From positions 128,001 through 192,000 of the forward strand of contig CP000069.1 in NCBI GenBank assembly GCA_000002445.1: a DNA stretch of 64,000 bases. The letters are read 5' to 3'. The stretch is from Trypanosoma brucei. Lineage: Eukaryota. Of this stretch, positions 42,301-64,000 are shown one piece after another (within the stretch, counting starts at the first letter, position 1; the number at the start of each line of letters is the position of its first letter). The notes beneath the pieces are model-generated. The model did no database searches. It saw only the letters and a list, made by a program, of their open reading frames with translations, and was not told the origin of the DNA. Position numbers and translations under genes: made by a program.

Positions 42301-42809
42301 TCACTGCACTTGGTGATGTTGCACTTCGTGGCGTGAATGATCATGTGGAAATGTACCAGTTGAATGCCGTGCCTGGTCGCAACTTTGCTGCATTACGGCT
42401 GGAACGTGAACTCTTTGATGAAGACGAGGATGGCACGACAACCTCCACCAGCGACCACAGTTCTTCACGTGCGGAGCTGAGTGAATCAGCACAATCGATA
42501 TTGAACTCACTGCAGTCTGTTTTCCGAACTTTTAAAGCAGCGCAACGGGGGAGTCTTCTGGCGTCGCTTTGTGAGCGTTGGCGTGTGCCTCTTCCCCGTG
42601 AAGCTGCATTCGAGTGGGATGACGCCTACTGTGAGGAAGTGGTGCGTCGCATTGCAGTTAAGGTTGGGCGTGTCGCTGACCGTAGCGCTCAAAGTGGAAG
42701 CAGTGAAGCTTCTGTGAGTACTGAAGAGGGCTCAATCATAATTGTTCCATTCGTTGGTTCACATTTCAGAGAAGGCCACTTTGGGTGTTCGCTTCCGTCG
42801 TTACATTAG
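39320..42809 (+). pseudogene. P3: degenerate divergent adenylate cyclase paralog, N-terminal half fragmented, C-terminal TM+cyclase half open
   Basis: Fragment ORFs 39345-39593, 39791-39976, 40063-40323, 40345-40578, 40786-41049 in different frames, each homologous in order to the F ectodomain, then the 575-codon frame 41082-42809. Confidence 0.75.
41082..42809 (+). CDS. TM + cyclase catalytic domain frame of P3 (575 codons from a non-ATG start; first in-frame ATG about 109 codons in)
   Basis: TM IAAIAVGFVVILVPLVTVLVVVIL plus cyclase motifs. The tail is QRGSLLASLCERWRVPLPREAAFEWDDAYCEEVVRRIAVKVG, homologous to but divergent from the F tail. Confidence 0.55.
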   Translation: MRDKLSTACEVLVVGLIPYNIPIILFHPNKHRNAHVFVLFFDDAPIHGELVSAFHEEPFSNRLLFATNLSHRRDKITESKTVREFRKIVQNESKWKPLSLLGSAIAYAMGSVLQCMGRLETSVRTKLDLRRSTVVNCGAMHIFVWSMSHVLNPFVSSALSSATLSVTYDEPRWIQQITEQIAAIAVGFVVILVPLVTVLVVVILATHRNARDNNLAPKEQTDPVTLIFTDIESSTALWAAHPELMPVAVATHHYLIRSLIGRYKCYEVKTVGDSFMIASKSPFAAVQLAQELQLCFLQHDWGTNAVDDSYWEFEQQRAEEDEKYTPPTARLDLKVYSRLWNGLRVRVGIHTGLCDIRHDEVTKGYDYYGRTPNMAARTESVANGGQVLITHEVYMSFSAEEREQIDVTALGDVALRGVNDHVEMYQLNAVPGRNFAALRLERELFDEDEDGTTTSTSDHSSSRAELSESAQSILNSLQSVFRTFKAAQRGSLLASLCERWRVPLPREAAFEWDDAYCEEVVRRIAVKVGRVADRSAQSGSSEASVSTEEGSIIIVPFVGSHFREGHFGCSLPSLH

Positions 42810-46133: not shown

Positions 46134-46485
46134 GTGCCATGCGCACAAGCGCCCGTGAGAAAAGCGGGGTGCGGAACTCGGTGGACAAAGAAGTTAGCAA
46201 CGAAACAAAAGGGGGAAAATAGCGTGCAAAGGGAGAAAGTAAAAAAAAATTATGTGCAAACGAAGGGGGAGGAGAAACAGAAAACAATATCGTTGGTGTT
46301 ATGACTCACATCGCAATAAACGATGTCCGCACAACGTCACATCCTTTCCTTACAAATCCACTCAAGGAAAAGGAGTGGGGGGGGGGAAAGAAAGGAAAAC
46401 ATGGTTGCGCCAAGACAAAGCGTGGAAGGATGCATATATTTCCCACCTTCCCTGAGCAACTCATCCTTTCGTAGCCTTCATTCCA

Positions 46486-47343
46486 TTACATAATCGAGCA
46501 TCCCGCATTTTTTCCTCCAGCGCCTTCCCCATACTCAAGATCATCTCTATAACTTTTATCTGCGTTCCTTTCAACCGAACCCACGGCAGCAGTTGGCTTT
46601 ATTTTGTGCCGCTTGAGGAGATGCCCTTCAAATGCGTCAGTTGCGGGGAACTGCTCGCGGCACACCGGGCAACGGAATAGCACGGGGTTGGGGACACACA
46701 CAAAGAGAGAATCGGGATGCTCCGCGGCAAAGTGGTCGTAGAGCAACCCGCTGGCAGTGAAGCCCTTGCGGCACACCGGGCAGCAAAGAAGTCTTCCGGC
46801 CGCATCAGGCGCCTCAACTATTACCGGGGAGGTTTGCTTCAATTTCTTCTGCAACTCCTCCCGTAACTGCCGCGCCTCCTCGACCTCAGTGCGCAGAATC
46901 GACTGGTGCAACGTTTCGCGCGCGCGTTCCACTTCGGCCTTCAGTCGCCGCACCTCCGCTTCAAAATCAACAGGTTTATCCATTTTTGCTTCCTCCTTTC
47001 TTGCCGCCCCCTTTTTGGACTCATCTTTCTTTGGCGCGTTCGTTTTCCCCACACGTGTCTTCGATTCCGCTCCTTTCGACGCCTCGCCCCTCCGTGTTGC
47101 AACTCCTTTTCGTTCAGTTCGTGTTGGCGACGCATCCTTTGGATCATTTTTTCTCTGCCCATCGTTTCCCCCTAATTTGGGACTTCTTGCCTCTCCTTCC
47201 CCTGGTCCGTCTTGCCTTTGGTTCTCCGCTTCCACCCTTGGCGCTCTCCGCTCCCGTGCCGGCTTGATGCCTTCCCTCGTCTGAGAAGTGCCCTTTTCAG
47301 CATCTTGGAGGGAAATAATCGGCGATACGGCTTGAATCGTCAT
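46486..47343 (-). CDS. C2H2 zinc-finger protein (two C-x2-C-x12-H-x4-H fingers; Lys/Arg/Glu-rich N-terminal region with predicted coiled coil)
   Basis: 285-aa ORF with a genuine ATG (revcomp cat 47341-47343). Fingers CPVCRKGFTASGLLYDHFAAEH and CPVCREQFPATDAFEGHLLKRH. The heptad-like stretch EAEVRRLKAEVERARETLHQSILRTEVEEARQLREELQKKLKQ. Confidence 0.7.
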   Translation of the reverse strand: MTIQAVSPIISLQDAEKGTSQTREGIKPARERRAPRVEAENQRQDGPGEGEARSPKLGGNDGQRKNDPKDASPTRTERKGVATRRGEASKGAESKTRVGKTNAPKKDESKKGAARKEEAKMDKPVDFEAEVRRLKAEVERARETLHQSILRTEVEEARQLREELQKKLKQTSPVIVEAPDAAGRLLCCPVCRKGFTASGLLYDHFAAEHPDSLFVCVPNPVLFRCPVCREQFPATDAFEGHLLKRHKIKPTAAVGSVERNADKSYRDDLEYGEGAGGKNAGCSIM

Positions 47344-47684
47344 TTGTTTCGGGAAAGACGAGCAGCAAGAGTTAGACTAAGGAAACCTGATCAGGGGGGT
47401 TTCCTGACAGCGCACTTGTAAAGGAGAACAGTTAAGAATATGGATGTAAAAAGAGAGGGAAATGGGCACGAGAAGGTGGGAGCACATGGATGCAGCGGGG
47501 AAGCGAATTTAAAGATGTAAGAGAAACAATACTGTTCCTGGCGCACGCGAAATACGTATATACGCGTGCTTGTGCGTGTGTGTGTTGATGTGTATATTTC
47601 CGTGCTCAGTTCACGTCAGGCCTTTGGTATCGAAGAACACATTACGAAAGCAAGCCACTGGCGAAACCTGACGATACCATCAGT

Positions 47685-48896
47685 TCACGAAGCCACTACA
47701 TGCGTCACGAAGAAGTCTGACTTGTGCGAGGCATTGAAAAGGACGACGGCGTTCATTACAGGAAACGGAGAGGGTGGTTTCCGTGTGCCCTGAGGGTGCA
47801 GTGGAGGTTGACACTGCGCCAGCAATCTTTTCCCCTTTTGAACGAACTCCATTGGGACAAGTTGTTTATTGTTGCTGTACCTGTCCAGCATCCGCGCGTA
47901 ATCTTCCTCACTGACCCCATGAATAACAACGAAGTTGTTCCGTAGCGGTGTATCGCACTGCTTTCTGTCTATAGCATGGAAGCGACAACATGTCTCAACA
48001 ACGATTGTCACGCTGTCGTCGGTTGCGAGAGAGAGAACGCGTCCGACCATGATGTCTTCATTTTCCATTCGAAAAAGGGTAAGGTTCCTCCGCAGGCGCC
48101 AACTGTACGGTTTCCTAATGAGCGGCCATATCGGCTCGTACGCCACCAACATTTTGGCCATGTCCTTTGAAAGCGTGTATGGTAAGCCGGATGCAACGTA
48201 GTAAGGATCCCCGAGAAAGTTAAGTCAGATATTTCCCCAATAAACGTTCTGACACGGTAACTTGTGCAAGTCAACAAGGTATTGATGCGCATGAACAAAC
48301 GCGTCATCATCACCTTTTGCCACCTAGTTCACACGGGGTAGTAGTCGGACAGCGAGATCATACCACAGGAACACTTTGCGGCTCATAGTGACTTCCGCTT
48401 TTATACCCCGTGTACCGCCATCCCCAATTTTCTTGTTCCGTCCAGGAACACCCTCATTAATTGGAAGCGTAACCATATCCTGCCAACGCAACGCCTCCTC
48501 CTTTAGTTCCGCCGTGTACGTGTGACCGTTACGATGGGGTCGATCAGTGAGGTACAATACAAGCATCTCCCCCGTGAAGTTGTTGCTCTTCTTTGCTACA
48601 ACGTCATGGATCCAGCAAGACGTGTGAAGAATGCGCCGCCTCCGCCTCACACTCGTGTCAGGTGACAGAATACCAAGTGCAACAAGATAGTTCCGCTCCC
48701 TCCATGTTTCCACCACATCAGACGCCACGAACTGCAGGGTTTCCTCTTCGTCATCGGGGAGGACGGGGGAGGAGGGAAAACGTAATGTTTTCCTATGACA
48801 AAACTGTTTTCCCGATGTCCACGGCACACTAACAACATCGCGGTGTAAGGAAACACACGCAGCGATAAGCATCACTAGGTAGAGGGGAAGTAGCAT
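47685..48896 (-). pseudogene. UDP-Gal/UDP-GlcNAc-dependent glycosyltransferase (trypanosome GT67 / beta-1,3-GT-like) with a single continuous reading frame interrupted only by two in-frame stops (TAG 48324-48326, TGA 48225-48227)
   Basis: The ORF-track pieces 48324-48914 and 47685-48161 are in the same frame (both codon sets start at positions divisible by 3). Hand translation across the gap gives ...GIKAEVTMSRKVFLWYDLAVRLLPRVN*VAKGDDDAFVHAHQYLVDLHKLPCQVYWGNI*LNFLGDPYYVASGLPYTLSKDMAKMLVAYEP...ENEDIMVGRVL. From N to C the frame has a signal-anchor (MLLPLYLVMLIAAC), an RRRRILHTSCW (RxxxW) motif, KGDDD, Y-x-x-SG-x-x-Y-x-LS-x-D and ED-x-x-VG motifs in canonical beta3-GT order. The N-terminal piece begins at a GTG in the track; the first in-frame ATG is at 48894-48896. 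Confidence 0.7.
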
Positions 48897-51706
48897 CGTT
48901 ACCACACGACGCACATTAGTTCATTTTATTCCTCTCATTTCTTCGTGGCCAGCGAAGGAAAAAAAAAAAACGACAACGCCATGGAAAAACAGTAATGAGT
49001 CCATGCCAAAAACGTCGCGCCTCCCCAGGAGAACACGAGAGGACGTCCCGTGCCACGCACGCGCACGAAAAAACAAACAAACAAACGGTAATATGCACTC
49101 TTGTAGGGAAGTGAAATGAATATGCTCCCACACTTCTGCTAGAATCAGAATGACTATACCTACCGCTCCAACTCCGGCCGTATGGGTGAAGATGGCTCGG
49201 TTAACATACTCACGTGGATGGTTCACCAAACTTTCAGTCCCCCCCCCCCAGCAGCACAATTCGAAGTGTGTAGCAACCATTGCTATTGTAAGCGCGAATG
49301 TCTTTCATGCTGAACTGTTGACAGGCGGCATTCCATCCAGTTGTCAATATTCCCCCGTTAAATGGCCATAAAAAGGCATAATGCGCGACCCCTCCCAGTA
49401 ACTATCATGTGATCCCACCCGCCAGCGGGGCCCGCGAGCACATAGGGACCACCACTGGATTATTACATGTATCATTTCCCCACTGGACGCAGTGGAATCG
49501 GCGCCGGATGCCATGTCCATGCCCTAAAGGGAGTTTCCTCCTGAACATGAATTGTTCGACGGATGGAATGCTGAAAGAGTTTGGGGGGAATACCTTGTTT
49601 GAGAGTCTGTAGTACATGAGGGTGTGGCAGATGGTTTCGTCCCATTTTTCACTGTTTTTGGAGAAGGTGGATGTTCGATGCGCATATCGCCGGTGGATAG
49701 CACTCCGCTGTGTGGCATTGAACTGCACCACTTTAAAATGCGGTACGTGATGCGATCCGCCTGCTGTGTTGATAAATGCAGTCGCAAAGTCAAGGGTATG
49801 CTCAGTGGTTGTTCAATACGGCCGGATCTTGGAAAAGGAACTCAGAGCAACCACACACCATATAAGGACCCCTTTTTGCACCTACGCCGCTGCCATCTCA
49901 TCGCTGAGACGCTGGAGGTGGAGAATTAGCGGGCCGCAGCGCTGGAGTGCCCGCTCTCGAGCGGCATCGTGGCAGCGGACCACAAAATTACTACGATGTT
50001 ACTCTCATTTCTGTGAGAACACAATGTAGACGTAACACGCTCCCCCAGCCCACCAACTACGACACTCTCAAGTCTTGGGGCAATCTCCACAAAATGCGTA
50101 GCGAAAGCAGCGGAGAGCAGTCACCGCTTTTTGATTCTTCAAAACAGATGCATGGACTGAAGAAAAGCTGCACCAAAGTCCTGTTCTGCGCGCAACTTAC
50201 GTGGTGGAAGGCATAAATTGGCACAACAAACGCACGGAAAGTAGTATGAGCACTTCGTTTTTTCTGACTGTGCCGAATGAGGAGACATCGCATGGTGCAA
50301 ACACCGGAGAGAATAAACGGGGAAAATGTTAAGACAGCACAACAGTGACCGAGCACAGTGTTCAGAGTAAACCGTCCCGTTCGTACGTTCTGAAATTCCC
50401 GCACAAAGCGCCGTCACTGTTGCTGCTGCATATCGTAGTTGTAGTTATAAAAAATACCAAACCTGACATGCGGCGAAGTGCTCCCACATAGCCCACCAAA
50501 GCTCCTGTTTCTTCTGGCACTTCGTTCCGAAGTTGCCCTATCAGCGTACTCCGCTGAAAAATATTGTCCGTAACACAATTTTCCGAAAGGAACTGCGACA
50601 GCATATGCCGCCGAGAACACCGACAACCAGGACTACGAATGGCATTTTGCTGCGCCTGGGAAACGCGTTCTACAGCGGGAACAGCAACGTGCCGCGACGC
50701 TGCTGACTTCAAACCGTCTGGTGAACGTAACCCCTTTGAACTAACAGGCACATATCGACGCAGGTAAAGCGCTGACAACATCCGAGCATCCGATCTATTG
50801 ACATTCTATCTCTTTGCTTAAGTTACAATCAACGAGGTGGACAGTTTACAACAATAACAATGAACTATCCTTTCAACTCATGTATAGTGCTTGGTCAATT
50901 GCCTTCACTTGGTCCTTTCCACGATCTGTACCGGACCCAGCAACACACAACGGTACAAGCGGATATTTTCAATCCGTAAAGACAGTGACACTACCAGTAA
51001 TACGTGTCAGCAATATACCTGTCTTTGCACCCGCGTTACATTCCACAGTTCAAACCGTCCCAGTTTGCTGTTGTTTTCCATATATCACAGCGCCCTGCAG
51101 CAGGGCAGTGAAGAGAACGACCATCCGTGCGAAGCCGCATGCCGTCATGCTTATCTCAGTGCCCATTGTTAGTATTACTTGCTTGTCAGTCTATGGGTCG
51201 CGCGTGAAAGAAAACAGGTTAGGAAGAGTAAGCACAAAACAAGGTGAACAAGGAAGATGATCACATCGCAATTGACCTGCATTGTAGAAACACCGCCCCG
51301 TTAAAATACGCGGAGAGTGATGAAGATATTGATCTGCTACACGAAATAGAACGCTACAAGGGAAAAGCAAAAACAGAGGAAAACACGATGCGCGGAAGCG
51401 GCCTCATTCACACGTCCAATGGAGCTCTGAACAGGGTGCGCAATTCCGCAATACCCCTGAGGGAGGGGAAATAAATAGGAATAGAGGAACAAATGGTTTT
51501 ATAACTGACACTTAATAGGCTCTCACTTAGCATCTTAGAGGAAATGGATGTTCATAAAATCGCTCACATAAAAAAAAGATAAAACGAAAATAAAACGATT
51601 AGTGGAAGTTGTTCTACTAGTTGCGTGTTATGGGCCAAACGAGTATCTACCCGTATCTTGTTATGGCTTATATGAGTAACACTGCACAGCCGGTAGGCCG
51701 CACAAG

Positions 51707-52657
51707 TCAGCACACAATTGCGAGGGAAAAAAAGACGATGAGTAGACACAATTCACCACCTACACAGATCGTAATGTGCGACAAGGAAGTCAATGTCGTC
51801 TCCGCCTCTCCTTTTGGTTTGGGAGTTGCCGAAGGTTGATCTTGAGAATTTGTAGACTCCTCATCTGAATGCAAACTTTCGTTGATTACTGCTAGCTCCT
51901 CATTGGCAGTGGAGTTTCCATTACCTGGAACGGGATGCGATGGCTGTGGAACTGTAACTTCGCAGAGGGCAGCGAAATAAGTTAGTGACTTGTATCCAGG
52001 TGCCTTACCCCCGGGCTTGTTGCCAGAAACTTCGCCGCCATCAAACCAACCGAACCACTTCGTCACGTTAGTGTACCAACCCATCACGTGCAATTGGCCA
52101 TCCTGAGGATAACTTTGCGCAAAAAACGACGGATAACCACCCAATGCGCCTGAACCACTTTTATAAGTGTACGATCCCCGCCAGAATGCAACGCCGTTGC
52201 CCTCTATTCCCGATGCTTCAAACAGACCACTGTTCCATCGGTAGACGCAATTAAGGGAAGTATCGTAGTCTCCTGCTGTGCAACGAATTCCCGCGTCCTG
52301 TGCCGCACTTGCACTGTAAGTGGCATCCCCTCCAAGGTAACTGTAGATAAATGGGCCATCAGCTACACCCAAGTGGTAGGCAGTGAGGCGTTCGTTAGTT
52401 GCCTGCGAGTGGTCAGTGGCCAGCGTCCCGCCGGCTTCACGGCAGATATGCACTGAGTTACTGTAGTCTACAAGGTAATCACCTCCATGCCAAAACTTTC
52501 GGTTGGGGAAAAGAATATACTCCTTGACATAGGCAGTTGGGTACACCTTACCAAATGCGAAGAGATGTGATGAACCTGAAAGACATTGCAGCAGGGCAGT
52601 GAAGAGAACGACCATCCGTGCGAAGCCGCATGCCGTCATGCTTATCTCAGTGCCCAT
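51707..52657 (-). CDS. secreted/surface glycoprotein, 316 aa: N-terminal signal peptide, ~230-aa Trp/Tyr/Gly-rich globular region with 4 Cys (weak C-type-lectin-like spacing), acidic Ser/Thr-rich stalk, C-terminal hydrophobic segment with no cytoplasmic tail (GPI-signal-like); tandem copy 1
   Basis: True ATG (revcomp cat 52655-52657). Signal peptide MGTEISMTACGFARMVVLFTALLQCLSG. N-glycosylation sequons NVTK, NGNST, NEST. C-terminus ...TSLSHITICVGGELCLLIVFFSLAIVC. Confidence 0.7.
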   Translation of the reverse strand: MGTEISMTACGFARMVVLFTALLQCLSGSSHLFAFGKVYPTAYVKEYILFPNRKFWHGGDYLVDYSNSVHICREAGGTLATDHSQATNERLTAYHLGVADGPFIYSYLGGDATYSASAAQDAGIRCTAGDYDTSLNCVYRWNSGLFEASGIEGNGVAFWRGSYTYKSGSGALGGYPSFFAQSYPQDGQLHVMGWYTNVTKWFGWFDGGEVSGNKPGGKAPGYKSLTYFAALCEVTVPQPSHPVPGNGNSTANEELAVINESLHSDEESTNSQDQPSATPKPKGEAETTLTSLSHITICVGGELCLLIVFFSLAIVC

Positions 52658-53197
52658 TGTTAGTATTACTTGCTTGTCAGTCTATGGGCCGCGCGTGAAA
52701 GAAAACAGGTTAGGAAGAGTAAGCACAAAACAAGGTGAACAAGGAAGATGATCACATCGCAATTGACCTGCATTGTAGAAACACCGCCCCGTTAAAATAC
52801 GCGGAGAGTGATGAAGATATTGATCTGCTACACGAAATAGAACGCTACAAGGGAAAAGCAAAAACAGAGGAAAACACGATGCGCGGAAGCGGCCTCATTC
52901 ACACGTCCAATGGAGCTCTGAACAGGGTGCGCAATTCCGCAATACCCCTGAGGGAGGGGAAATAAATAGGAATAGAGGAACAAATGGTTTTATAACTGAC
53001 ACTTAATAGGCTCTCACTTAGCATCTTAGAGGAAATGGATGTTCATAAAATCGCTCACATAAAAAAAAGATAAAACGAAAATAAAACGATTAGTGGAAGT
53101 TGTTCTACTAGTTGCGTGTTATGGGCCAAACGAGTATCTACCCGTATCTTGTTATGGCTTATATGAGTAACACTGCACAGCCGGTAGGCCGCACAAG

Positions 53198-54148
53198 TCA
53201 GCACACAATTGCGAGGGAAAAAAAGACGATGAGTAGACACAATTCACCACCTACACAGATCGTAATGTGCGACAAGGAAGTCAATGTCGTCTCCGCCTCT
53301 CCTTTTGGTTTGGGAGTTGCCGAAGGTTGATCTTGAGAATTTGTAGACTCCTCATCTGAATGCAAACTTTCGTTGATTACTGCTAGCTCCTCATTGGCAG
53401 TGGAGTTTCCATTACCTGGAACGGGATGCGATGGCTGTGGAACTGTAACTTCGCAGAGGGCAGCGAAATAAGTTAGTGACTTGTATCCAGGTGCCTTACC
53501 CCCGGGCTTGTTGCCAGAAACTTCGCCGCCATCAAACCAACCGAACCACTTCGTCACGTTAGTGTACCAACCCATCACGTGCAATTGGCCATCCTGAGGA
53601 TAACTTTGCGCAAAAAACGACGGATAACCACCCAATGCGCCTGAACCACTTTTATAAGTGTACGATCCCCGCCAGAATGCAACGCCGTTGCCCTCTATTC
53701 CCGATGCTTCAAACAGACCACTGTTCCATCGGTAGACGCAATTAAGGGAAGTATCGTAGTCTCCTGCTGTGCAACGAATTCCCGCGTCCTGTGCCGCACT
53801 TGCACTGTAAGTGGCATCCCCTCCAAGGTAACTGTAGATAAATGGGCCATCAGCTACACCCAAGTGGTAGGCAGTGAGGCGTTCGTTAGTTGCCTGCGAG
53901 TGGTCAGTGGCCAGCGTCCCGCCGGCTTCACGGCAGATATGCACTGAGTTACTGTAGTCTACAAGGTAATCACCTCCATGCCAAAACTTTCGGTTGGGGA
54001 AGAGAATATACTCCTTGACATAGGCAGTTGGGTACACCTTACCAAATGCGAAGAGATGTGATGAACCTGAAAGACATTGCAGCAGGGCAGTGAAGAGAAC
54101 GACCATCCGTGCGAAGCCGCATGCCGTCATGCTTATCTCAGTGCCCAT
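53198..54148 (-). CDS. secreted/surface glycoprotein, tandem copy 2 (identical to copy 1)
   Basis: Identical 316-aa translation; same repeat unit. Confidence 0.7.
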   Translation of the reverse strand: MGTEISMTACGFARMVVLFTALLQCLSGSSHLFAFGKVYPTAYVKEYILFPNRKFWHGGDYLVDYSNSVHICREAGGTLATDHSQATNERLTAYHLGVADGPFIYSYLGGDATYSASAAQDAGIRCTAGDYDTSLNCVYRWNSGLFEASGIEGNGVAFWRGSYTYKSGSGALGGYPSFFAQSYPQDGQLHVMGWYTNVTKWFGWFDGGEVSGNKPGGKAPGYKSLTYFAALCEVTVPQPSHPVPGNGNSTANEELAVINESLHSDEESTNSQDQPSATPKPKGEAETTLTSLSHITICVGGELCLLIVFFSLAIVC

Positions 54149-54420
54149 TGTTAGTATTACTTGCTTGTCAGTCTATGGGCCGCGCGTGAAAGAAAACAGG
54201 TTAGGAAGAGTAAGCACAAAACAAGGTGAACAAGGAAGATGATCACATCGCAATTGACCTGCATTGTAGAAACACCGCCCCGTTAAAATACGCGGAGAGT
54301 GATGAAGATATTGATCTGCTACACGAAATAGAACGCTACAAGGGAAAACATAGTTGGAAGGTGAGAGTGGCAGTAAATACTAAGAGCATGGAGAAAAAAC
54401 ACATAAAAAAATATAATGTA

Positions 54421-55706
54421 AAGGGAAGCATGTAGAGGTTATGCCAAATGTTCAGTTGAGGTTACACACTGCAGCGACGTAGACGCTCCCTCCCGCCACA
54501 ACTCGTCGTAGCTCCTCATCGCACAGTTAAAACGTCAAGGGTTCAGTCTTGAATTACCACAAAATACGGATAAATGAGGTTTGTCCCTATAAAGGAGCGG
54601 CATTTCTGCACTCCCCTCGAGTGTCCAAACAGTGTTGTAAATAACAGAAGGATATTATAGGCTCAGCAATATTAACAGAGTGAACGTGTTACAAAACTCC
54701 CTCACAATACTATAATTAGTATAAGCTGCAATAACTGTGACTGTGAAGGAACTTTGTTATACTGCGAGGCAACGCGGGTTTCAGCACATAACTAAGCTCA
54801 TGCATCGACATCACACTCTGGAGGGAATGGAGGCAATCACATACCTTAAATCCTTACGGCAACACAAATGAGTGAAGGGAAAGAAAGCATGCAACTGGTG
54901 AAACAACATGTAACATCAGCAATGCAGAGGGTGATAAGGGTTGTATATCCGAAGAGAGAGATACAACAGCCCACATAACACCCAACACATACAAACACAC
55001 ATGCAACATAACACTCATTATGAAAAAATATTTAAAGACATCGCTAGCATTAAGTGGATTCAAAAAGAAAAACGTGACGCAGACACACACGGAAACACAG
55101 TTTTGTACCCGAAAGGCTGCGGGATTGGGCGTGAGAGGTGGAATGTTTAAAAAAAATAGTCATGCACTCGCACGCTTAAGGACAGACGTGTTGAAAAAGA
55201 AATGTTTCACCTTATTTTTCTTAAAGCCTCAAATGGCAAGGACAAAAATAAAAAAGAGAGCCCTTAGGGAAAGTACATAGCTAATCCCATTTTGTGATTA
55301 CTCACAGAACAAAAACGTTTTGGTTAAATTAGAAGAAATGTTGAGCCGTCCTGTCTTCCATAAGGGTCGGATTTGGAACAGTAAGAAACCAACCGGCGCT
55401 GACACGGCAAAACACATGCATGTGTTAATTCAGTGTCTTGAAAGACAACGCATGTGTAATCTAACAGAGGGCATGTTCCCTCTTAAGATTAGTATGTGCT
55501 TTAATGCAGAGGCAGCAGCCACCAAAAATAGAATGTAAAAAATGTAATAATAAATAGATGGCAAAAGATAAAAATAGATACAAAAGACAAACCCTACCGA
55601 GACTACGTTAAAATTCACTAACAACTACTACAATCGGTATGCTAATTAACTTTTCCGCCGAGTAAAACTAAGAGATTTGTACGCTTTATGACGTGCAACA
55701 GTACCA
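54421..55706 (-). repeat. S spacer, truncated fourth copy (distal ~1.3 kb only), fused at 54421 to the surface-protein tandem repeat
   Basis: Matches 3440-4735 (aagggaagcatgta... onward). The sequence below 54421 belongs to the 1491-bp repeat flank instead of the rest of S. Confidence 0.75.
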
Positions 55707-57434
55707 CTAATGTAACGACGGAAGCGAACACCCAAAGTGGCCTTCTCTGAAATGTGAACCAACGAATGGAACAATTATGATTGAGCCCTCTTCAGTACTC
55801 ACAGAAGCTTCACTGCTTCCACTTTGAGCGCTACGGTCAGCGACACGCCCAACCTTAACTGCAATGCGACGCACCACTTCCTCACAGTAGGCGTCATCCC
55901 ACTCGAATGCAGCTTCACGGGGAAGAGGCACACGCCAACGCTCACAAAGCGACGCCAGAAGATTCCCCCGTTGCGCTGCTTTAAAAGTTCGGAAAACAGA
56001 CTGCAGTGAGTTCAATATCGATTGTGCTGATTCACTCAGCTCCGCACGTGAAGAACTGTGGTCGCTGGTGGAGGTTGTCGTGCCATCCTCGTCTTCATCA
56101 AAGAATTCGCGATCCAGCCGTAATGCAGCAAAGTTGCGGCCAGGCACGGCATTCAACTGGTACATTTCCACATGATCATTCACGCCACGAAGTGCAACAT
56201 CACCAAGTGCAGTGACATCAATTTGCTCACGCTCCTCAGCTGACAGTGACATGTAAACCTCATGCGTTATCAGCACCTGACCACCATTTGCTACACTCTC
56301 TGTCCTTGCTGCCATGTTTGGAGTGCGCCCATAGTAGTCATATCCCTTCGTCACTTCATCGTGTCGGATGTCGCACAACCCGGTGTGGATTCCAACACGT
56401 ACACGCAGGCCATTCCACAAACGACTGTACACTTTAGGGTCCAACCGCGCAGTTGGCGGTGTGTACTTCTCGTCCTCCTCCGCACGCTGCTGCTCAAATT
56501 CCCAGTAGGACTCATCAATCGCATTTGTTCCCCAGTCATGCTGCAAGAAACACAGCTGTAGTTCCTGTGCGAGTTGGACGGCAGCGAAAGGACTCTTACT
56601 CGCTATCATGAACGAATCCCCTACAGTCTTGACTTCGTAGCACTTATACCTCCCAATCAGTGAACGAATCAAATAGTGATGTGTTGCAACGGCAACAGGC
56701 ATCAGATCAGGGTGTGCAGCCCACAACGCAGTGCTGCTCTCAATGTCAGTAGATATTAGTGTCACGGGGTCAGTTGGTTCCTTGGGTGCAAGATTGTTAT
56801 CACGAGCATTCCGGTGTGTTGCTAATATAACAACCACAAGAACCGTAACAAGCGGCACCAACATTACGACGAAGCCAACTGCAATAGCGGCAATTTGCTC
56901 AGTTATCTGTTGGATCCATCTCGGTTCATCATAGGTCACTGACAGTGTGGCAGACGACAGCGCAGAGGACACAAAAGGGTTTAGAACATGTGACATCGAC
57001 CATACAAAAATATGCATCGCACCACAGTTGACAACAGTGCTTCGCCTCAAGTCAAGTTTCGTTCGTACACTTGTCTCCAAACGACCCATACATTGCAGGA
57101 CACTTCCCATTGCGTAAGCGATGGCAGACCCACGTAGTGACAATGGCTTCCACTTCGACTCATTCTGCACGATCTTGCGGAACTCACGTACTGTTTTGGA
57201 CTCCGTGATCTTATCCCTCCGATGTGACAGATTCGTTGCGAATAGCAAGGGGTTAGAAAATGGCTCTTCATGGAAGGCATTCACGAGTTCGCCGTGGATT
57301 GGTGCATCATCGAAGAACAGGACGAAGACGTGCGCATTACGGTGCTTGTTAGGGTGAAAGAGGATTATGGAGATATTATATGGGATAAGACCTACAACCA
57401 ATACCTCACATGCAGTTGACAGCTTGTCTCTCAA
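55707..57434 (-). CDS. TM + cyclase catalytic domain frame of P4 (575 codons from a non-ATG start)
   Basis: Cyclase motifs present. Has the unusual substitution ISTDIESS where other copies have IFTDIESS. Confidence 0.5.
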   Translation of the reverse strand: MRDKLSTACEVLVVGLIPYNISIILFHPNKHRNAHVFVLFFDDAPIHGELVNAFHEEPFSNPLLFATNLSHRRDKITESKTVREFRKIVQNESKWKPLSLRGSAIAYAMGSVLQCMGRLETSVRTKLDLRRSTVVNCGAMHIFVWSMSHVLNPFVSSALSSATLSVTYDEPRWIQQITEQIAAIAVGFVVMLVPLVTVLVVVILATHRNARDNNLAPKEPTDPVTLISTDIESSTALWAAHPDLMPVAVATHHYLIRSLIGRYKCYEVKTVGDSFMIASKSPFAAVQLAQELQLCFLQHDWGTNAIDESYWEFEQQRAEEDEKYTPPTARLDPKVYSRLWNGLRVRVGIHTGLCDIRHDEVTKGYDYYGRTPNMAARTESVANGGQVLITHEVYMSLSAEEREQIDVTALGDVALRGVNDHVEMYQLNAVPGRNFAALRLDREFFDEDEDGTTTSTSDHSSSRAELSESAQSILNSLQSVFRTFKAAQRGNLLASLCERWRVPLPREAAFEWDDAYCEEVVRRIAVKVGRVADRSAQSGSSEASVSTEEGSIIIVPFVGSHFREGHFGCSLPSLH

Positions 57435-59200
57435 AATAGGACCTTCACCACTCGCAACAAAGAAGCTTAGTGATGTGTTAAAGTTGTCAAGTGTTTTTGC
57501 AACATATTCCTAATTCCTCTCGTATCACCACCACGACACACAATGAAATGCATCCTTCCTGCACCATTTTGTATAATATGCTCAACTATCATAAATAACT
57601 GCTGCTCATTTGTTGGTAACAGGTGGATCACATTCCTTCTGGGGTTACTCGGTTGTGATGTGAGTATTATAGGATCGATGAATGCCATACCCTTCGTCCG
57701 TAGTAACGAATTATCCACGACACCAAGCACAGCAGTTACAACTCGTTTCTCAACATCATTATACAGAGTTGCAGAAGCTTCGTAAAATTTCGAGGATAGT
57801 CAGTGTAAAAAGAAACTATCAGAGACCCAGTTGACCTTTGCCAACAACATGAGGGACACCATCGTATACCATCTATGCAGTACGCAGTGCCTTTGGGTCA
57901 TCGGTTATATTAAACATGACCCCACTCAATGGGCCCTACAACTGTGGCAGGTCTCGATAACAGCGAGATGAACCAAGGGTTAATATAGCTTCCTTCATAG
58001 GGTGCAGATGGAGATCCTTTTCCACCTTCTTCACGCACATCACACTCCCACCTTGGTTACGTAAACACGATACACCCCGCTCTCCCGCCTTATTACGGCA
58101 CTCACCACCAAAGTCACCAACCACAATATTATCAATTGGATAACGACGTTTATTGTACAGTGATTTCATAAATACACCCCTGCTAGTTAGCTATTCGTGA
58201 CAACTCAGTGCCTGTTTCAATACCTCCCCAGCAACCCATCTGTTCAATGTCAGCTCAGCTTCAGCGTCTTGCTCGGTGAAGTTATTTTCGTTAATATCCC
58301 ACCTTGTGCGCTTATAGTTATTACCATTAACCTTTAACAACATAGTCATATCATCTCTGAAACGCCTGACAGCTTTGTATGTGTCACCCTTCGTAATTAG
58401 GTCAGCCCCAGTTATTATTATCTTAGCAGCCACAAACTCGTCTCTACCCAATTTATATGCCCACTTGTTCTTGATGGCGTGTTGGAGTGCAGAGGGTGTA
58501 TGAATAAATATTCGCCTCTTGTCCTGTGGTCATATAATCATTTCATGGGGAATCTCTTCATATCAGGGATTGGAGAACCAAATACAATCATTCCCTGAGG
58601 TCCAGTATCGGCAACCTTATTACACTCCGCACTGAAGCTCCTGTTATCCGATTCCTTATCAAGTTGACTCTTCAATGCAAAAAAAAAAAAATAACAACTA
58701 AACAACTTGCGATTCATCCGTGTTGCCAACTACGCAGCAAGCTTATACTCATCATCACCATAAGAAACATCTTTCAAATACATGAAATCCAGTCGGTGTG
58801 ACCGTAACTGAGTGATAGCATAACGGAAAAGAGCAAGCATCTCAACGGCGAGTGGTGCTTCCAGGAGGTATAAATTGGGATTCCAACTGTGTACCCTACT
58901 GAATCCTGTGAAAGGTAAGAAATCAACTACGCATTCTTTTCATTGAAATATTTGGTTAAGTTGAGAGTATTTTTGTCACCCACAGATTCCAGTATAATAG
59001 CAAACTCATCACCGTAATTGGTTGTACAGATGGCGTATCCAAAGTCATCCAGAGACGGAACATATGCAACTGCCACACTGACACACGGAAGCGACTTCCC
59101 GTTGGTAATAGATGCGTTGAAACCTGCAATAATAGGATCACATACCTTTGCTGAGATCTTGTCACTGTATAACATGTTGCATACCCTTACCCATAATAAT
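55707..59200 (-). pseudogene. P4: degenerate divergent adenylate cyclase paralog (N-terminal half fragmented, C-terminal half open); copy homology ends abruptly at 59297
   Basis: Same ordered fragment ORFs as the other P copies (58927-59175, 58538-58729, 58191-58451, 57936-58169, 57467-57730) plus the 575-codon frame 55707-57434. Confidence 0.75.
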
Positions 59201-59297
59201 CCATTTGCAAGCTATACTTCAGCCAGCAGCTGTAGTAACATAGAAAAACACTACGTAAGTGACTACGCCATCTCTAGCATGTAATTCACGCATGGGG

Positions 59298-60780
59298 TGA
59301 CTGTAGGCGTGAGTCGCACGATGAACGGCGCGTGTCGATTCCCTGAATCCATTTCTTGGTAAAATTTAGGGGCTGCATTTGGATGCAGTGCGATCACACG
59401 AAGTAGCTGCGTTTCCCGTTGAACCAAAGCACATAACTTACATCGACAATCCTTTGTAGCAGTGCGGAGGCCCGCGCTCGGCCATGCCGACCCGCTGAAG
59501 TCGATCTTCGTCGGGGGGGGGGGAGGGGAACGGTTTTTTATTTGCCCTCCACGCTCAACTTTGACAACGTCAAAGGGCGTAGTTGGAGGTGTCGGGACAC
59601 GCCTGGCTTCGCAGAGCGCTTGTTTGCCTTCCAATTGGATACTGAGGACATCCTTGGTGGTGGGGAAGTGCCTCAACTAAGGGCGGAGTGAACGGTTTCT
59701 TGACATTGCTTTTTTCTCATTTTCACGGGGATGCCGCGCCATTCAATCCGTTTGGAGAACCATGTAGATCCTTTCCTCGTGGGGACGCCAACCGGGCAGG
59801 GCGCACGTGCCGGTGCCTCAGTCGCCTTCCTCTGCGGGTTGGCTAATTTAGTAGATGCCCCTTGGGGTTTTGGGAGGTGGTGCTGCGGTGCCACTGGGCG
59901 TGGTGACGCCTTGATCACCCTTGAGGATTGGGAGGGGCAAGTGGTGTGGCGATGGCCGCTTACCCGCGCCGTGGCTGACATTCTTTTAGCTTTCGGGGTT
60001 GCGTTAGCTGCCGCGCGGTGCCAAAAAAGTGCTAAGGGGAGGGATAATGTGGCCTTCAACCTCGCTCGGGGCGTTGGGCGCGTACAGCGCGTTTGGAAGA
60101 AGTGGCTTCCGCCGTCTGGGGTGCCGGTGGCGTGTGCCTCGTGCGGTTGGTTTTTCTCTTCAGGAGATGGGACTGATCAATGCTTGGGGGTTAGAACTTC
60201 TGTCTCCTTGTGTTCGCTTGTGGGGAGCTAGTGGGGCGCAGGCCGCCCGCTAGCAGGAGGTAGCAAAGGTGCGTGGAAGTTCCGGCCACTTTAAAGGATA
60301 TGAAACTGAAGGGGAGATATCGCCTCCAAGGCACCCTAGGGAGTCGCGGTTTAGCAGCACTGTCCCTTGGGGGCTGCTGCCGCATGATCGTGTTGCCGGA
60401 GCCCGCTATTTCGTATCTTCGGGCGCCAGCTGGGGGGGGGGGGGGGCGGCGGGTTTCTCCACTTGGAGACCCCCACCGTGCTCGGGCGCCGTCATTTAAT
60501 CGGCGGTCCCTCGGGAAAGAAAGGGACCTGTATGGGCATTCCGGGTGGGGGGATTTTTTTTTTGTGTGCGCAGGCGCGCTTCAATTGCGTAGTATCAATA
60601 GAAGGATTGAACATCCCCCCTGAAACGAAGTATCAATCGCGTGCTGACACTCGATTCTGTGTTCGTGATACCGGTGTTTGTGCTGAGCGTTGCTTGTACT
60701 GCTTGACTGTGTGGGCCGCACACTGCGGTATGCTTGAGAGGGAAAGAAAAAGAAAGGATATCCTCCACGACGGTTAGAGA
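59298..60780. other. GC-rich island with long G homopolymer runs (G11 at 59513-59523, G15 at 60432-60446, G6+T10 at 60547-60563) and overlapping low-complexity ORFs on both strands; probably non-coding
   Basis: Composition and homopolymers read directly. ORFs 59673-60059(-) and 59731-60231(+) overlap each other, are Ala/Gly/Arg/Pro-rich, and lack recognisable motifs. Confidence 0.5.
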
Positions 60781-62611
60781 CTATATGTCAAGGATAAAAG
60801 GAAAAGGGGCAGATATAAAGAGGTATTCAGTTATGCAGTGTGTGTATGTGTGGATCTGTGGTTGCGGGATACTCCACACTTCTTTTGTTTTTTTTATTAC
60901 GAGTGAACACGTTGCTGTGCACGGTGAACGTCCCTCCCACGACCGAAGGATTTTTTAATTCTGATAATGCGGATATCCGTAAAGTTCCGTCCTTTTCTTT
61001 GTGTTACAAGGGGTCGTGTGTCTTTCACTCATGCAGTTTGATTTTATTTTCGTCGACTCCTGGAATTATCTGTGTTATTTATTTTAATTCCGTTCGTGTG
61101 ATTCCGATATACCTCTTTTGGTTGTTTCCTATTAGGTGGTCGGCTACAATGTTAACTTTTCGCTGATGTTTGTGAGTCTTCTGTGCACTTTTCCTATTGG
61201 CCTTTGCAAATGGGTGTTGATCTTCATAGTGCATAGACGGTTTGCGAGGATGTTGGGACCATGCAATCACTTTGGCGGTGCGTCCGTTCTTTTTCTTTTT
61301 GGAGAAAAATATTGCGTACATTTATTCACTTAATTTTGTCGGTGGCCTCTGCTATGTTTTTTGATTGTGCTTGTTTTTCTAGGAGAATCCGCACCTTCTT
61401 TAATTTTGAGGTTGTATAAGCAGTTGTTTTGTAGTATAAGTAAGGAGACATATGCTACAATGTTTTTGTAAACATTATGTTCGGGTACATACGAAATATT
61501 TTACTGCTTCCTTTTTCCGCTGAACTTGGGGTGAAGTTCCTACGTTTTTATTCTGTTTCATTAAGGTAACCCAAGTTCCTTTTCTTTCGTTGCCTTCTCC
61601 CTCTGGACACAACACGGGCGGTCGAATATGACTGCTTATATCAAGGCATCGCGACGGCGTTAGAAAACAAAGGTGACGTGTGTAATAACTTTCGCTTGGC
61701 CGGAGGGTCATGTTTCTGCCTCTTTGTTTTTTGCGTCGTGAAATGGTGACCTGGTTTTTGTGTACCGAGCATGTACTTTTTCATATTATCATATTCCACG
61801 AAGATTTCAAGTATTGTCACATACTTTGCCCGTGGTAGGTGCTACCCAGGCCATGCTTCCAGAGGTAATAATGATAGTTTCAGCGAAGTGTGTTGTCGAT
61901 GATGTTATCGGCGGTTTTGCATAATCGTTTGTCGTGTTTTATCTGTTGTGGCAACCTCGTTAATATACAGTTAGACGTTAATTTACATATTTTGCGGTTC
62001 GGTCATAAGCCATAAGTTTTCTAGAAGTGGGTGTGTTTGTTACCCCTTTTACACTCACTGTTAGAAGATGTTTTACGTGTCTACTACTCGGCTATTGTAT
62101 TTGGCCGCAATATATTCGGGGAGACGGCTTTGATATGGATCTGACTCGTCATGTGTGTATCTGCATGCGTGCATAAAGTGTAGAGGAGGAAAGTGCAGGT
62201 GCAACATCATTACCTCGCGTTAATAGAAGACGAAGTGAGTATGTGATTTCAGCGGGCGCCAAGTTGATCTTCGGCTCTGCCGGTGACGAGGATAGCTGCA
62301 GGGGCCTTGAAGGAGAACTTAACACAGTCGTGGTAAGTAAGTACGAGAGCAAAGTATGTACAAAACTAGGTTGCCACAGGGGAGAAAGGTGTACACCGCT
62401 GGAGATGGTGTTGGCATGTGCATATGTGCATGTACTGAAGCATTGTCCATATTGTCGGCAATTAAATAATTCTTCCCTCCGACAGATTTAAACACCAAGT
62501 GAAGTATACAGTTTTTCACTGCTGCAACTACACATACGAATTTAGTTTTTTTCTTCGAAGGGACTAACCATACAAGCATTCGAATTTTCAGTAAGAGCGC
62601 AAACTTGTGAA

Positions 62612-62636
62612 TAGGGTTAGGGTTAGGGTTAGGGTA
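62612..62636 (+). repeat. interstitial telomere-like repeat (TTAGGG)x3.5
   Basis: tagggttagggttagggttagggta read directly. It sits 25 nt upstream of the peptidase ATG, downstream of a polypyrimidine tract (62533-62548). Confidence 0.9.
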
Positions 62637-62661
62637 CACATAAAAAATAAGTAAATACTCC

Positions 62662-64000
62662 GATGCAGGTTGATTGGGGTGCAGTTCATAAATTCATTAC
62701 TGACGAATGGGACAAGACCCTCGTCCCCACCATTTCTGCATACATCGAGGTTCCGAACCAAAGCCCCCACTACGACCAGGAATGGGCAACCAATGGGTTA
62801 ATGCAAAAGGCTATGGATATCATTATTGAGTGGGTCAAAAAACAGCCCATCAAGGGTATGAAATACGAGCTTTTCGAGGAGAAAGGATTAACGCCTTTCC
62901 TCATTGTGGAGATTGAAGGAACTGAGCCATGTGCCAACACACTAATGATGTACGGCCATATGGACAAACAACCCCCTCTTCTTCCGTGGGAGGAGGGACT
63001 CCACCCATATAAGCCAGTGTATCGGGATGGCAGATTATATGGTCGTGGAGGAGCTGACGATGGTTATGCCGTGTTTTCAGCTCTGACCGCAATGGCGGCT
63101 GTGCAAAAGCAAGGCATTCCACACGGGAAAGTCGTTGTTATCATTGAGGCCAGTGAGGAATCTGGGAGTATGCACCTCCCTTTTTACCTCGAGAAATGCA
63201 GGGACCGCATCGGCAACGTCGATCTTCTTATTTGTTTGGACAGTGGGGCGATGAGCTACGATCAACTTTGGCTGACGACAGCTCTACGAGGAGTATGTGG
63301 TGGCATGCTTACAGTGGAAACAATGAAGGAAGGCATGCACAGTGGCCTATCCGGTGGCGTTGTTCCCGATTCCTTTCGTATTGCCCGTATGCTCCTCGAA
63401 CGTATTGAAGATACAAATACCGGTGAAGTAAAAATTATCGAAGCAAACTGTGACATCCCTCAGCATGTTGTGGAGAGTATGCAGTCAATAAGGGCAATTG
63501 CATACAAGGAGCAGTTTCCCCTTCTGTCCGGCGTGTCTACTGAAGTTGATGACACTGTGGAGCTAGCCCTGAGGAATTCTTGGAAACCGTGCTTGACAGT
63601 GGTGGGTGATAACCTCCCTGATGCGGCAACGGCTGGGAATGTCAATCGTGCCAAGACCGTGCTGCGGCTCTCCCTCCGTGTCCCCCCTATTGTGGACGCG
63701 ACGAAGGCCACACTAGCGATGAAAAGAATACTCGAGGCTGATTCCCCATATAACGCCAAAGTAACTTTCACTCCGGATGATGCAGGTGACGGCTGTGCGA
63801 CACCACGGCTAAAGCCATGGCTTGTGGAGGCGCTCAATAAGGGTAGTGAGATGGCTTTTGGTAAGGGGTTCGCATCACAGGGCATGGGTGGGTCCATTCC
63901 TTTTATTGCAATGTTGCTGAAAAAATTTCCGGATGCGCAATTTGTGGTCACCGGCGTTTTGGGACCGAAGAGCAACGCACACGGGCCGAACGAGTTTCTA
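62662..64000 (+). CDS. M20-family metallopeptidase (CNDP/Dug1-like dipeptidase type), 3'-partial: 446 codons, no stop before window end
   Basis: Open frame from ATG 62662 to the window end, hand-translated. It has the M20 motifs YGHMD (metal-binding His/Asp), YGRGGADDGY (GRGxxDDKG-like) and EASEESGS (catalytic/metal Glu pair), plus HGPNEF near the end. It is not in the ORF track because it is incomplete. Confidence 0.8.

What the first reader, a model, noticed from the sequence alone, without database searches (positions are those of the whole stretch)
62612..62636. Interstitial telomere-type (TTAGGG)3.5 tract in the 5' leader region of a housekeeping peptidase gene
A perfect 25-nt TAGGG(TTAGGG)3TA tract lies 25 nt upstream of the M20 peptidase ATG, after the polypyrimidine tract expected for its trans-splice site. 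It would therefore sit in or next to the mature 5' UTR. Chromosome-internal telomere hexamer runs are uncommon. Together with the adjacent GC/poly-G island and the abrupt end of the cyclase-module homology at 59297, it may mark an old chromosome-healing or fusion scar. In kinetoplastids it could also be a binding site for telomere-repeat-binding factors.
Basis: partly seen in the sequence, partly recalled or inferred. Interest (0 to 1): 0.6.

Follow-up and report, generated by a model that had tools for sequence, protein, structure and literature searches.

The report
Telomere-repeat microsatellite in an mRNA leader
A short, perfect run of the telomere repeat TTAGGG really does sit inside the mature 5' leader of a Trypanosoma brucei peptidase mRNA and varies between strains by one unit, but it looks like a small unstable repeat in a promoter-like region, not a chromosome-fusion scar.

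Summary
TAGGG(TTAGGG)3TA lies at window 62612-62636 on the + strand, 26 nt before the ATG at 62663. It is the only telomere-type dimer or longer in the 64 kb.

The window is Trypanosoma brucei, left part of chromosome 6. The tract is present in three other genome assemblies and five transcript-like Logan contigs, so it is not an assembly artefact.

One Logan contig joins the 3' end of the spliced leader to window 62561. This places the tract inside the mature 102-nt 5' UTR.

The tract varies in length: 4 GGG runs in some strains and 3 in others, uncoupled from nearby coding SNPs. Only the 4-run allele is predicted to fold into a TERRA-type RNA G-quadruplex.

The gene is the first real gene after a divergent strand-switch region. 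That region is GT-rich and carries poly-G runs, as described for T. brucei transcription start regions, so the "GC/poly-G island" needs no scar explanation.

The healing or fusion-scar idea finds no support. The tract is short, perfect and unidirectional, it points away from the nearest chromosome end, and it lies 3.3 kb from the cyclase-module boundary.

It fits best as a short interstitial telomeric repeat. Whether it has a function was not tested.

The parts
62612..62636 (+). Short interstitial telomeric repeat TAGGG(TTAGGG)3TA, equal to 4.0 units of TAGGGT. This is the 4-GGG-run allele.
   Evidence: The 3-run allele is seen in L001, L002, L003, L005, L006 and L008; the 4-run allele in L004 and L009.
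62614..62634 (+). Canonical G-quadruplex motif GGG(TTAGGG)3, the 22Ag/TERRA type.
   Evidence: Regex scan. ViennaRNA with G-quadruplex folding lowers the MFE from -30.4 to -43.6 kcal/mol with a three-layer G4. The 3-run allele gives no G4.
62546..62560 (+). Polypyrimidine tract TTTTTTTCTTC followed by GAAG, with the trans-splice acceptor AG at 62559-62560.
   Evidence: Sequence. The spliced-leader junction in L003 and the contig starts of L005 and L008.
62561..62662 (+). Mature 5' UTR of the M20 peptidase mRNA (102 nt). The tract starts 51 nt into it. There is no upstream ATG.
   Evidence: No substitutions against T. b. gambiense or T. b. equiperdum; the only difference is the one-unit indel.
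62663..64000 (+). M20/M25/M40 peptidase CDS (first 445 of 475 aa; it runs off the window). This is the chromosome 6 paralogue, identical to the TREU927 / T. equiperdum OVI protein P0121.
   Evidence: Pfam PF01546 at 2.5e-19. Homologues, cluster members, identity check.
59305..62545 (+). Divergent strand-switch region and putative Pol II transcription start region. It is unique in the window and is 59% G+T on the + strand. It has a G11 run at 59513-59523 and a G15 run at 60432-60446.
   Evidence: Gene strands, composition, uniqueness. ORF 59731-60231 matches only a 'hypothetical protein, unlikely'. The only three canonical G4 motifs in the window all lie between 59513 and 62634 on the + strand.
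54405..59304 (-). 4.9-kb adenylate-cyclase pseudogene module, one of four copies in the window. This copy is truncated at 59304 relative to the others.
   Evidence: Self-BLAST. The other copies continue in homology past this end (8326-9482 matches 27846-26700).

Best explanation
This is a short interstitial telomeric sequence: a hexanucleotide microsatellite of 3 or 4 TAGGGT units. It lies inside the trans-spliced 5' UTR of the first real gene (an M20 dipeptidase paralogue on T. brucei chromosome 6) downstream of a GT-rich, poly-G-bearing divergent transcription start region.

Shown here: the tract is real, internal, transcribed into the mature mRNA, perfect, and variable by exactly one unit between strains independently of linked coding SNPs. 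So it currently behaves like an unstable microsatellite.

Inferred origin: either a few repeats added by telomerase while a double-strand break was repaired (the vertebrate short-ITS route), or slippage in a G/T-skewed region. It is not a relic of an old chromosome end.

Inferred consequence: in the 4-run allele the RNA, and the non-template DNA strand, can fold into a three-layer TERRA-type G-quadruplex 26 nt before the AUG. That would mildly impede ribosome scanning. The 3-run allele cannot form it. Because both alleles persist, any effect is probably small or neutral.
For: - Tract and rarity.
- Independent assemblies and the 3- versus 4-run alleles.
- Allele uncoupled from coding SNPs: 4-run with P0121 and P0122, 3-run with P0121 and P0001.
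- Spliced-leader junction at 62561.
- G4 predicted only for the 4-run allele.
- Divergent strand switch, GT-richness and G runs. These match the GT-rich promoter elements with long G and T stretches in PMC5579346.
- All three canonical G4 motifs of the 64 kb cluster on the coding strand here, in line with the reported G4 enrichment at T. brucei transcription start sites (PMC13316426).
- In vertebrates, short ITSs are inserted in one step at breaks and commonly vary in repeat number (PMC7215372).
Against: - No empty (tract-less) allele or orthologous empty site was found, so the insertion mechanism is not shown.
- The 5' UTR has no substitutions against two subspecies, while the upstream non-coding region differs by 1.8-2.4%. 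That could hint at constraint, but the CDS is equally invariant, so the result is inconclusive.
- The G4 is a thermodynamic prediction only. No translation, structure-probing or protein-binding data were examined.
- The genome-wide frequency of such tracts in T. brucei could not be counted with these tools.
Confidence: 0.6

Rival explanations
1. Relic of an ancient telomere: a chromosome-healing or fusion scar that joined a cyclase/IGP-bearing end fragment to the M20 gene.
For: - The locus lies in the dynamic left part of chromosome 6. The gene starts about 14.7 kb from the start of the T. b. gambiense chromosome record and about 115 kb into the T. b. equiperdum record.
- It is surrounded by genes related to expression-site genes (GRESAG4 cyclases, LRR protein).
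- This M20 copy is a relocated paralogue. The T. vivax gene is syntenic with the chromosome 10 copy instead.
- A duplication module is truncated at 59304.
Against: - The tract is only 25 nt, perfect and unidirectional, with no head-to-head array, no degenerate repeats and no subtelomeric repeats beside it.
- TTAGGG is on the strand that runs towards the core, opposite to what a telomere capping the core fragment would leave.
- The splice acceptor and 51 nt of UTR lie on the far side of the tract, so a fusion would have had to supply them by luck.
- The M20 duplication predates the T. brucei / T. congolense split. A relic that old should have decayed.
- The GC/poly-G island is explained as a transcription start region.
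- The module boundary is 3.3 kb away.
- The locus is collinear across the T. brucei group.
Confidence: 0.05
2. A functional cis element recognised as telomere repeat. Either duplex TTAGGG is bound by TbTRF (or RAP1) at the edge of the transcription start region, or UUAGGG in the mRNA is bound by the TbTRF Myb domain. Either way, telomere proteins would be linked to expression of this gene.
For: - TbTRF binds ds(TTAGGG)12 and ss(UUAGGG)12 through its Myb domain, and the authors raise chromosome-internal TTAGGG as possible sites (PMC8191777).
- The tract is in the mature mRNA.
- The UTR has no substitutions across subspecies.
Against: - Binding was shown only for 12 repeats, not 3-4.
- Published TRF ChIP-seq reported internal enrichment only at RNA polymerase III-associated termination regions lacking TTAGGG-like motifs (PMC8559703).
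- The copy number is not fixed (3 versus 4 units).
- The chromosome 10 paralogue and the T. vivax gene have no such tract.
- No second copy exists in about 100 kb of other sequence examined.
Confidence: 0.1
3. A DNA-level component of the transcription start region. The tract would be one of several coding-strand G4 or GT-rich elements that exclude nucleosomes, favour H2A.Z deposition or R-loops, and give direction to Pol II initiation.
For: - All three canonical G4 motifs in the 64 kb are on the + strand between 59513 and 62634.
- The region holds 8 of the 12 most G+T-rich 500-nt windows in the window.
- GT-rich elements drive directional transcription and H2A.Z deposition (PMC5579346).
- G4 ChIP-seq is enriched at T. 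brucei transcription start sites (PMC13316426).
Against: - The tract lies downstream of the splice acceptor, at the extreme 3' edge of the region and inside the first mRNA.
- Losing one unit removes the canonical G4 in several strains with no sign of consequence.
- The clustering statistic is post hoc and rests on three motifs.
Confidence: 0.2

Closest known systems
Vertebrate short interstitial telomeric sequences (short ITSs; Nergadze/Giulotto model, PMC7215372)
   Same: A few exact, unidirectional TTAGGG units at an internal, unique-sequence site, with repeat-number (VNTR) polymorphism between individuals or strains.
   Different: This is a kinetoplastid. No orthologous empty site is available, so one-step insertion at a break is not demonstrated. 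The tract lies in a mature mRNA leader.
RNA G-quadruplexes in 5' UTRs that repress translation (NRAS-type), and the TERRA / 22Ag quadruplex
   Same: Four GGG runs with UUA loops on the sense strand of the 5' UTR, 26 nt before the AUG. The core sequence is identical to the telomeric 22Ag/TERRA quadruplex.
   Different: Folding and any effect on translation are untested here. Some strains naturally carry a 3-run allele that lacks the canonical motif. The comparison with NRAS rests on my own knowledge, not on a tool result.
GT-rich / G-run elements of T. brucei Pol II transcription start regions (PMC5579346) and G4 enrichment at transcription start sites (PMC13316426)
   Same: Coding-strand G/T skew, long G runs and G4 motifs at a divergent strand-switch region, directly upstream of the first gene of a polycistron.
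   Different: The telomere-repeat sequence itself is not a described promoter element, and it lies after the splice acceptor.
Plant telo-boxes and yeast Tbf1/Rap1 promoter sites (internal telomere motifs used as cis-regulators)
   Same: A telomere-type motif close to the 5' end of a gene.
   Different: Those motifs recur upstream of many co-regulated genes and have known binding proteins. Here only one instance is known, with no recurrence in the paralogue or in orthologues. The comparison rests on my own knowledge.

Membership tests
Short interstitial telomeric sequence (short ITS) | Tandem exact or near-exact TTAGGG units, a few units long and unidirectional | tested here: met
   4.0 units at 100% matches. 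No CCCTAA dimer anywhere in the window.
Short interstitial telomeric sequence (short ITS) | Internal chromosomal position within unique sequence | tested here: met
   62.6 kb of non-telomeric sequence lies upstream in the window. The gene is at about 115 kb in a 2.25-Mb T. b. equiperdum record. The flanks are unique in the window.
Short interstitial telomeric sequence (short ITS) | Repeat-number (VNTR) polymorphism | tested here: met
   3 versus 4 GGG runs across four assemblies and five Logan contigs.
Short interstitial telomeric sequence (short ITS) | One-step insertion at a break site, shown by an orthologous empty locus | not testable with these tools
   No chromosome 6-type orthologue was found outside the T. 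brucei group, and every T. brucei sequence found carries the tract.
Fusion or healing-scar ITS (ancestral telomere relic) | Head-to-head or long degenerate arrays, with subtelomeric sequence adjacent | tested here: not met
   A single perfect 25-nt unidirectional tract with unique flanks.
Fusion or healing-scar ITS (ancestral telomere relic) | G-strand orientation consistent with a telomere that capped the retained fragment | tested here: not met
   TTAGGG is on the gene's strand and runs towards the core, while the nearest chromosome end is upstream of the gene (record coordinates). It fits only the less likely case of a telomere on the distal fragment.
Fusion or healing-scar ITS (ancestral telomere relic) | Synteny break at the tract in related genomes | tested here: inconclusive
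   The locus is collinear across the tract in T. b. gambiense, T. b. equiperdum and T. equiperdum OVI. Outgroups lack this paralogue. Paralogue homology is confined to the CDS.
5' UTR RNA G-quadruplex regulator | At least four G3 runs with loops of 7 nt or less, on the sense strand within the mature 5' UTR | tested here: met
   62614-62634 lies within the UTR 62561-62662. This is not met by the 3-run allele.
5' UTR RNA G-quadruplex regulator | Demonstrated folding and an effect on translation | not testable with these tools
   Only a ViennaRNA G-quadruplex prediction is available: 13 kcal/mol of stabilisation.
TRF-bound internal telomere motif or telo-box-like cis element | Occupancy by a telomere-repeat-binding protein | not testable with these tools
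   The literature gives no internal TRF peak at a TTAGGG motif (PMC8559703). TbTRF binding has been shown only for 12 repeats (PMC8191777).
TRF-bound internal telomere motif or telo-box-like cis element | Recurrence of the motif at related genes or in orthologues | tested here: not met
   Absent upstream of the chromosome 10 paralogue and the T. vivax gene, and from the 58-nt leader of a third, unidentified trypanosome contig. No other copy in the window or the loci.

The most novel reading that the evidence does not exclude
The tract is a natural one-unit on/off switch. Strains with four UUAGGG-type G runs would make an mRNA leader that folds into a TERRA-like quadruplex and is recognised by the TbTRF Myb domain. 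This would tie translation or localisation of a dipeptidase mRNA to the telomere-protein pool. Strains with three runs would escape this control.
Probability: 0.07. Interest if true: 0.6.

Novelty: new member of a known kind. Interest (0 to 1): 0.3.

Why it matters
If the tract is only a short ITS, the result adds a kinetoplastid example to a class studied mainly in vertebrates. It would also give a ready-made polymorphic marker near the left end of the chromosome 6 core.

Its practical value is as a natural experiment. The same mRNA exists with and without a canonical TERRA-type quadruplex 26 nt before its AUG. This would allow a direct test of whether RNA G-quadruplexes or TbTRF's UUAGGG-RNA binding affect translation in an organism that regulates genes almost entirely after transcription.

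It also warns that probes or TALEs designed against telomere repeats have at least one internal, transcribed target.

Tried and rejected
1. Expansion from an ancestral single TAGGGT unit. The chromosome 10 paralogue has AAACTTATAGGGT in its leader, but the local alignment of the two leaders scores no better than shuffles (16 against a mean of 15.8; 253 of 500 shuffles reach it). Rejected as chance.
2. Duplication boundaries. BLAST of the chromosome 6 locus against the chromosome 10 and T. vivax loci finds homology only within the CDS. It therefore cannot be asked whether the tract marks the edge of the duplicated segment.
3. Known RNA families. Rfam found nothing in 57000-64000 at E of 1 or less.
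4. The 166-aa ORF in the GC island. It has no Pfam hit, and its only match is a T. b. gambiense 'hypothetical protein, unlikely'. I treat it as spurious.
5. Genome-wide count of internal tracts. No T. brucei genome is searchable by DNA with these tools, and the supplement of PMC12267983 is not held. I relied on that paper's text.
6. Gene identifier and source of the runs. Literature searches for the gene ID and for ERR7929157 found nothing. I could not retrieve Siegel et al. 2009 to cite G runs at start sites and used Wedel et al. 2017 instead.
7. L002. The 290 nt at its 5' end do not match the window or any locus and are non-coding. It remains unexplained: either a chimeric assembly or a second locus.

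Full report
**Observation.** The window reads ...cttgtgaaTAGGGTTAGGGTTAGGGTTAGGGTAcacataaaaaataagtaaatactccgATG. The tract occupies 62612-62636 on the + strand, and the ATG of the peptidase ORF is at 62663, leaving 26 nt between them. Tandem Repeats Finder calls period 6, 4.0 copies, 100% matches. A TTAGGGTTAGGG search with up to one mismatch on both strands finds only the three overlapping hits here; 100 dinucleotide shuffles averaged 0.16 hits and none reached 3. A regex scan confirms that no other TTAGGG or CCCTAA dimer exists in the window.

**Source and reality of the tract.** The ORF is an M20/M25/M40 peptidase (Pfam PF01546).
- Its 445 window-encoded residues are identical to the protein of T. 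b. brucei TREU927 and T. equiperdum OVI (P0121). They differ at one residue each from the T. b. equiperdum (P0001) and T. b. gambiense (P0122) proteins.
- The gene lies on chromosome 6. It starts about 14.7 kb from the start of the T. b. gambiense record and about 115 kb into a 2.25-Mb T. b. equiperdum record, on the forward strand in both.
- Aligning the upstream regions shows the tract in every sequence that reaches it. There are 4 GGG runs in the window, T. equiperdum OVI and T. b. gambiense. There are 3 GGG runs in T. b. equiperdum and in five Logan contigs from runs ERR7929156, -157, -159, -161 and -163.
- So the tract is not an assembly artefact, and it is a length polymorphism of exactly one hexamer.
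- The allele is uncoupled from the coding SNPs. The 4-run form occurs with P0121 and P0122; the 3-run form occurs with P0121 and P0001. This points to recurrent slippage or recombination.

**The tract is in the mature mRNA.** Contig L003 begins TCTGTACTATATTG and continues GGACTAACCATAC.... The first 14 nt are the 3' end of the T. brucei spliced leader, as in the SL-trapping primer ...ACAGTTTCTGTACTATATTG of PMC2916883. The rest is window 62561 onward.
- The acceptor is therefore the AG at 62559-60, directly after the pyrimidine run 62546-62556.
- L005 and L008 begin at the same junction, and L006 reads through it.
- The 5' UTR is 62561-62662 (102 nt) with no upstream ATG. The tract starts 51 nt into it.
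- I infer that the ERR79291xx contigs derive from RNA because they carry the leader or start at the junction; the nature of these runs could not be confirmed.

**Genomic setting.**
- ORFs from 46486 to 57434 are all on the - strand: a zinc-finger protein, two IGP-family genes and a cyclase fragment. From 59731 onward they are on the + strand.
- In T. b. gambiense the + strand genes continue after the peptidase with an LRR protein and a full-length cyclase.
- The 166-aa ORF at 59731-60231 matches only a 'hypothetical protein, unlikely'. The peptidase is therefore the first real gene of the rightward transcription unit.
- The intervening 59305-62560 is unique in the window. It is 59% G+T on the + strand, against a window mean of 50% (sd 5%), and holds 8 of the 12 most G+T-rich 500-nt windows. 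It also carries G11 and G15 runs.
- This matches the GT-rich, G- and T-homopolymer-bearing elements that drive directional Pol II initiation and H2A.Z deposition at T. brucei transcription start regions (PMC5579346).
- The only three canonical G4 motifs in the 64 kb, on either strand, are at 59513, 60432 and 62614, all on the + strand. This is in line with the reported G4 ChIP-seq enrichment at transcription start sites (PMC13316426).

**The scar hypothesis.** The 4.9-kb cyclase module 54405-59304 is repeated four times in the window. The other copies remain homologous beyond the shared end (8326-9482 matches 27846-26700). However:
- that boundary is 3.3 kb from the tract;
- the tract is short, perfect and unidirectional, with unique flanks;
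- its G-strand runs towards the chromosome core, whereas a telomere that had capped the core fragment would read CCCTAA on this strand (orientation);
- the splice acceptor and half the UTR lie on the far side of the tract;
- the T. brucei-group genomes are collinear across it at 97-99.9% identity.

The peptidase is a relocated paralogue. The T. vivax gene (77% identical) sits between a short-chain dehydrogenase and a methyltransferase, exactly as the T. brucei chromosome 10 copy does (72% identical). A neighbour-joining tree places the chromosome 6 copy outside the pair formed by chromosome 10 and T. congolense. The relocation is therefore old. A telomere relic of that age should be degenerate, and this tract is perfect. 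Homology between the paralogous loci is confined to the CDS, so the tract cannot be tied to a duplication edge. An apparent match of the chromosome 10 leader (AAACTTATAGGGT) is at chance level.

**Likely behaviour and mechanism.**
- With G-quadruplex-aware folding, the 4-run leader gains about 13 kcal/mol and its minimum-energy structure contains a three-layer quadruplex with UUA loops. The 3-run leader shows no quadruplex.
- The motif is the 22Ag/TERRA sequence. In Lister 427 that motif is reported to be almost entirely telomeric, VSG or BES, with few core instances (PMC12267983).
- TbTRF binds ds(TTAGGG)12 and ss(UUAGGG)12 (PMC8191777). Published TRF ChIP-seq found internal peaks only at RNA polymerase III-associated termination regions without TTAGGG-like motifs (PMC8559703).
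- The UTR shows no substitutions against two subspecies, while the upstream region differs by 1.8-2.4%. The CDS is just as invariant, so this is not clear evidence of constraint.

**Comparison with known classes.** The tract meets the descriptive criteria of vertebrate short ITSs: a few exact unidirectional units, an internal unique site and repeat-number polymorphism (PMC7215372). The defining test of one-step insertion at an empty orthologous site cannot be made, because no tract-less allele or orthologue was found. It also meets the sequence criterion for a 5' UTR RNA quadruplex in one allele only. It does not meet the criteria for a fusion-type ITS, and it does not recur as a regulatory telomere motif would.

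**Verdict.** This is a real, rare, transcribed and polymorphic short telomere-repeat tract at the edge of a transcription start region. It is most likely a short-ITS-type microsatellite with little or modest effect. The scar interpretation is not supported. The allele-specific quadruplex makes it a convenient test case but not a surprise. I rate interest at about 0.3 and class it as a new member of a known kind.

Noticed in passing
window 59513-59528, 60432-60453, 62614-62634 (+): The only three canonical G-quadruplex motifs in the whole 64 kb, on either strand, all lie on the coding strand of the one divergent strand-switch region upstream of the peptidase.
   Followed up: partly
L002:1-300 (Logan ERR7929163): This contig carries 290 nt of unrelated, non-coding sequence that starts with T14. 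It joins the peptidase leader 10 nt upstream of the tract (…GAGTGGTAACTTGTGAATAGGG). The sequence is absent from the window and from all fetched loci. It is either an assembly chimera or a second locus that shares the tract and its flank.
   Followed up: partly
window 62663-64000; L010, L011: The chromosome 6 M20 peptidase is a relocated paralogue that stays closer to the T. vivax protein (77%) than the syntenic chromosome 10 copy does (70%). The positional orthologue lineage (T. brucei chromosome 10 plus T. congolense) seems to have evolved faster after the duplication. No chromosome 6-type copy was found in T. congolense.
   Followed up: partly
window 3426-8325, 27847-32743, 39215-44108, 54405-59304: A 4.9-kb module holding a truncated adenylate-cyclase ORF (about 575 aa) is present four times at 97-98.6% identity, two direct and two inverted. 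Three of the copies sit next to full-length GRESAG4-type cyclases of about 1280 aa.
   Followed up: partly
window 51707-52657 and 53198-54148 (-): Tandem duplicate IGP-family (DUF5075, C-type lectin-like) genes of 316 aa each, with near-identical flanks (99.6-99.7% over 270-350 nt).
   Followed up: no
window 59731-60231 (+): A 166-aa ORF in the GC-rich part of the strand-switch region is annotated as a gene in T. equiperdum OVI and T. b. gambiense. It has no homologue beyond a 'hypothetical protein, unlikely' and is probably a spurious call caused by GC-rich sequence.
   Followed up: yes
window 62561-62662 compared with L001 and L009: The 5' UTR and the CDS are almost invariant between subspecies (0 to 0.37% mismatches), while the adjacent strand-switch region differs by 1.8-2.4%. 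Divergence drops sharply at the splice acceptor.
   Followed up: partly
window 46486-47343 (-): A 285-aa ORF with C2H2 / Di19-type zinc-finger matches lies close to a convergent strand switch (about 45.5-46.4 kb), next to a G10 run at 46377-46386.
   Followed up: no
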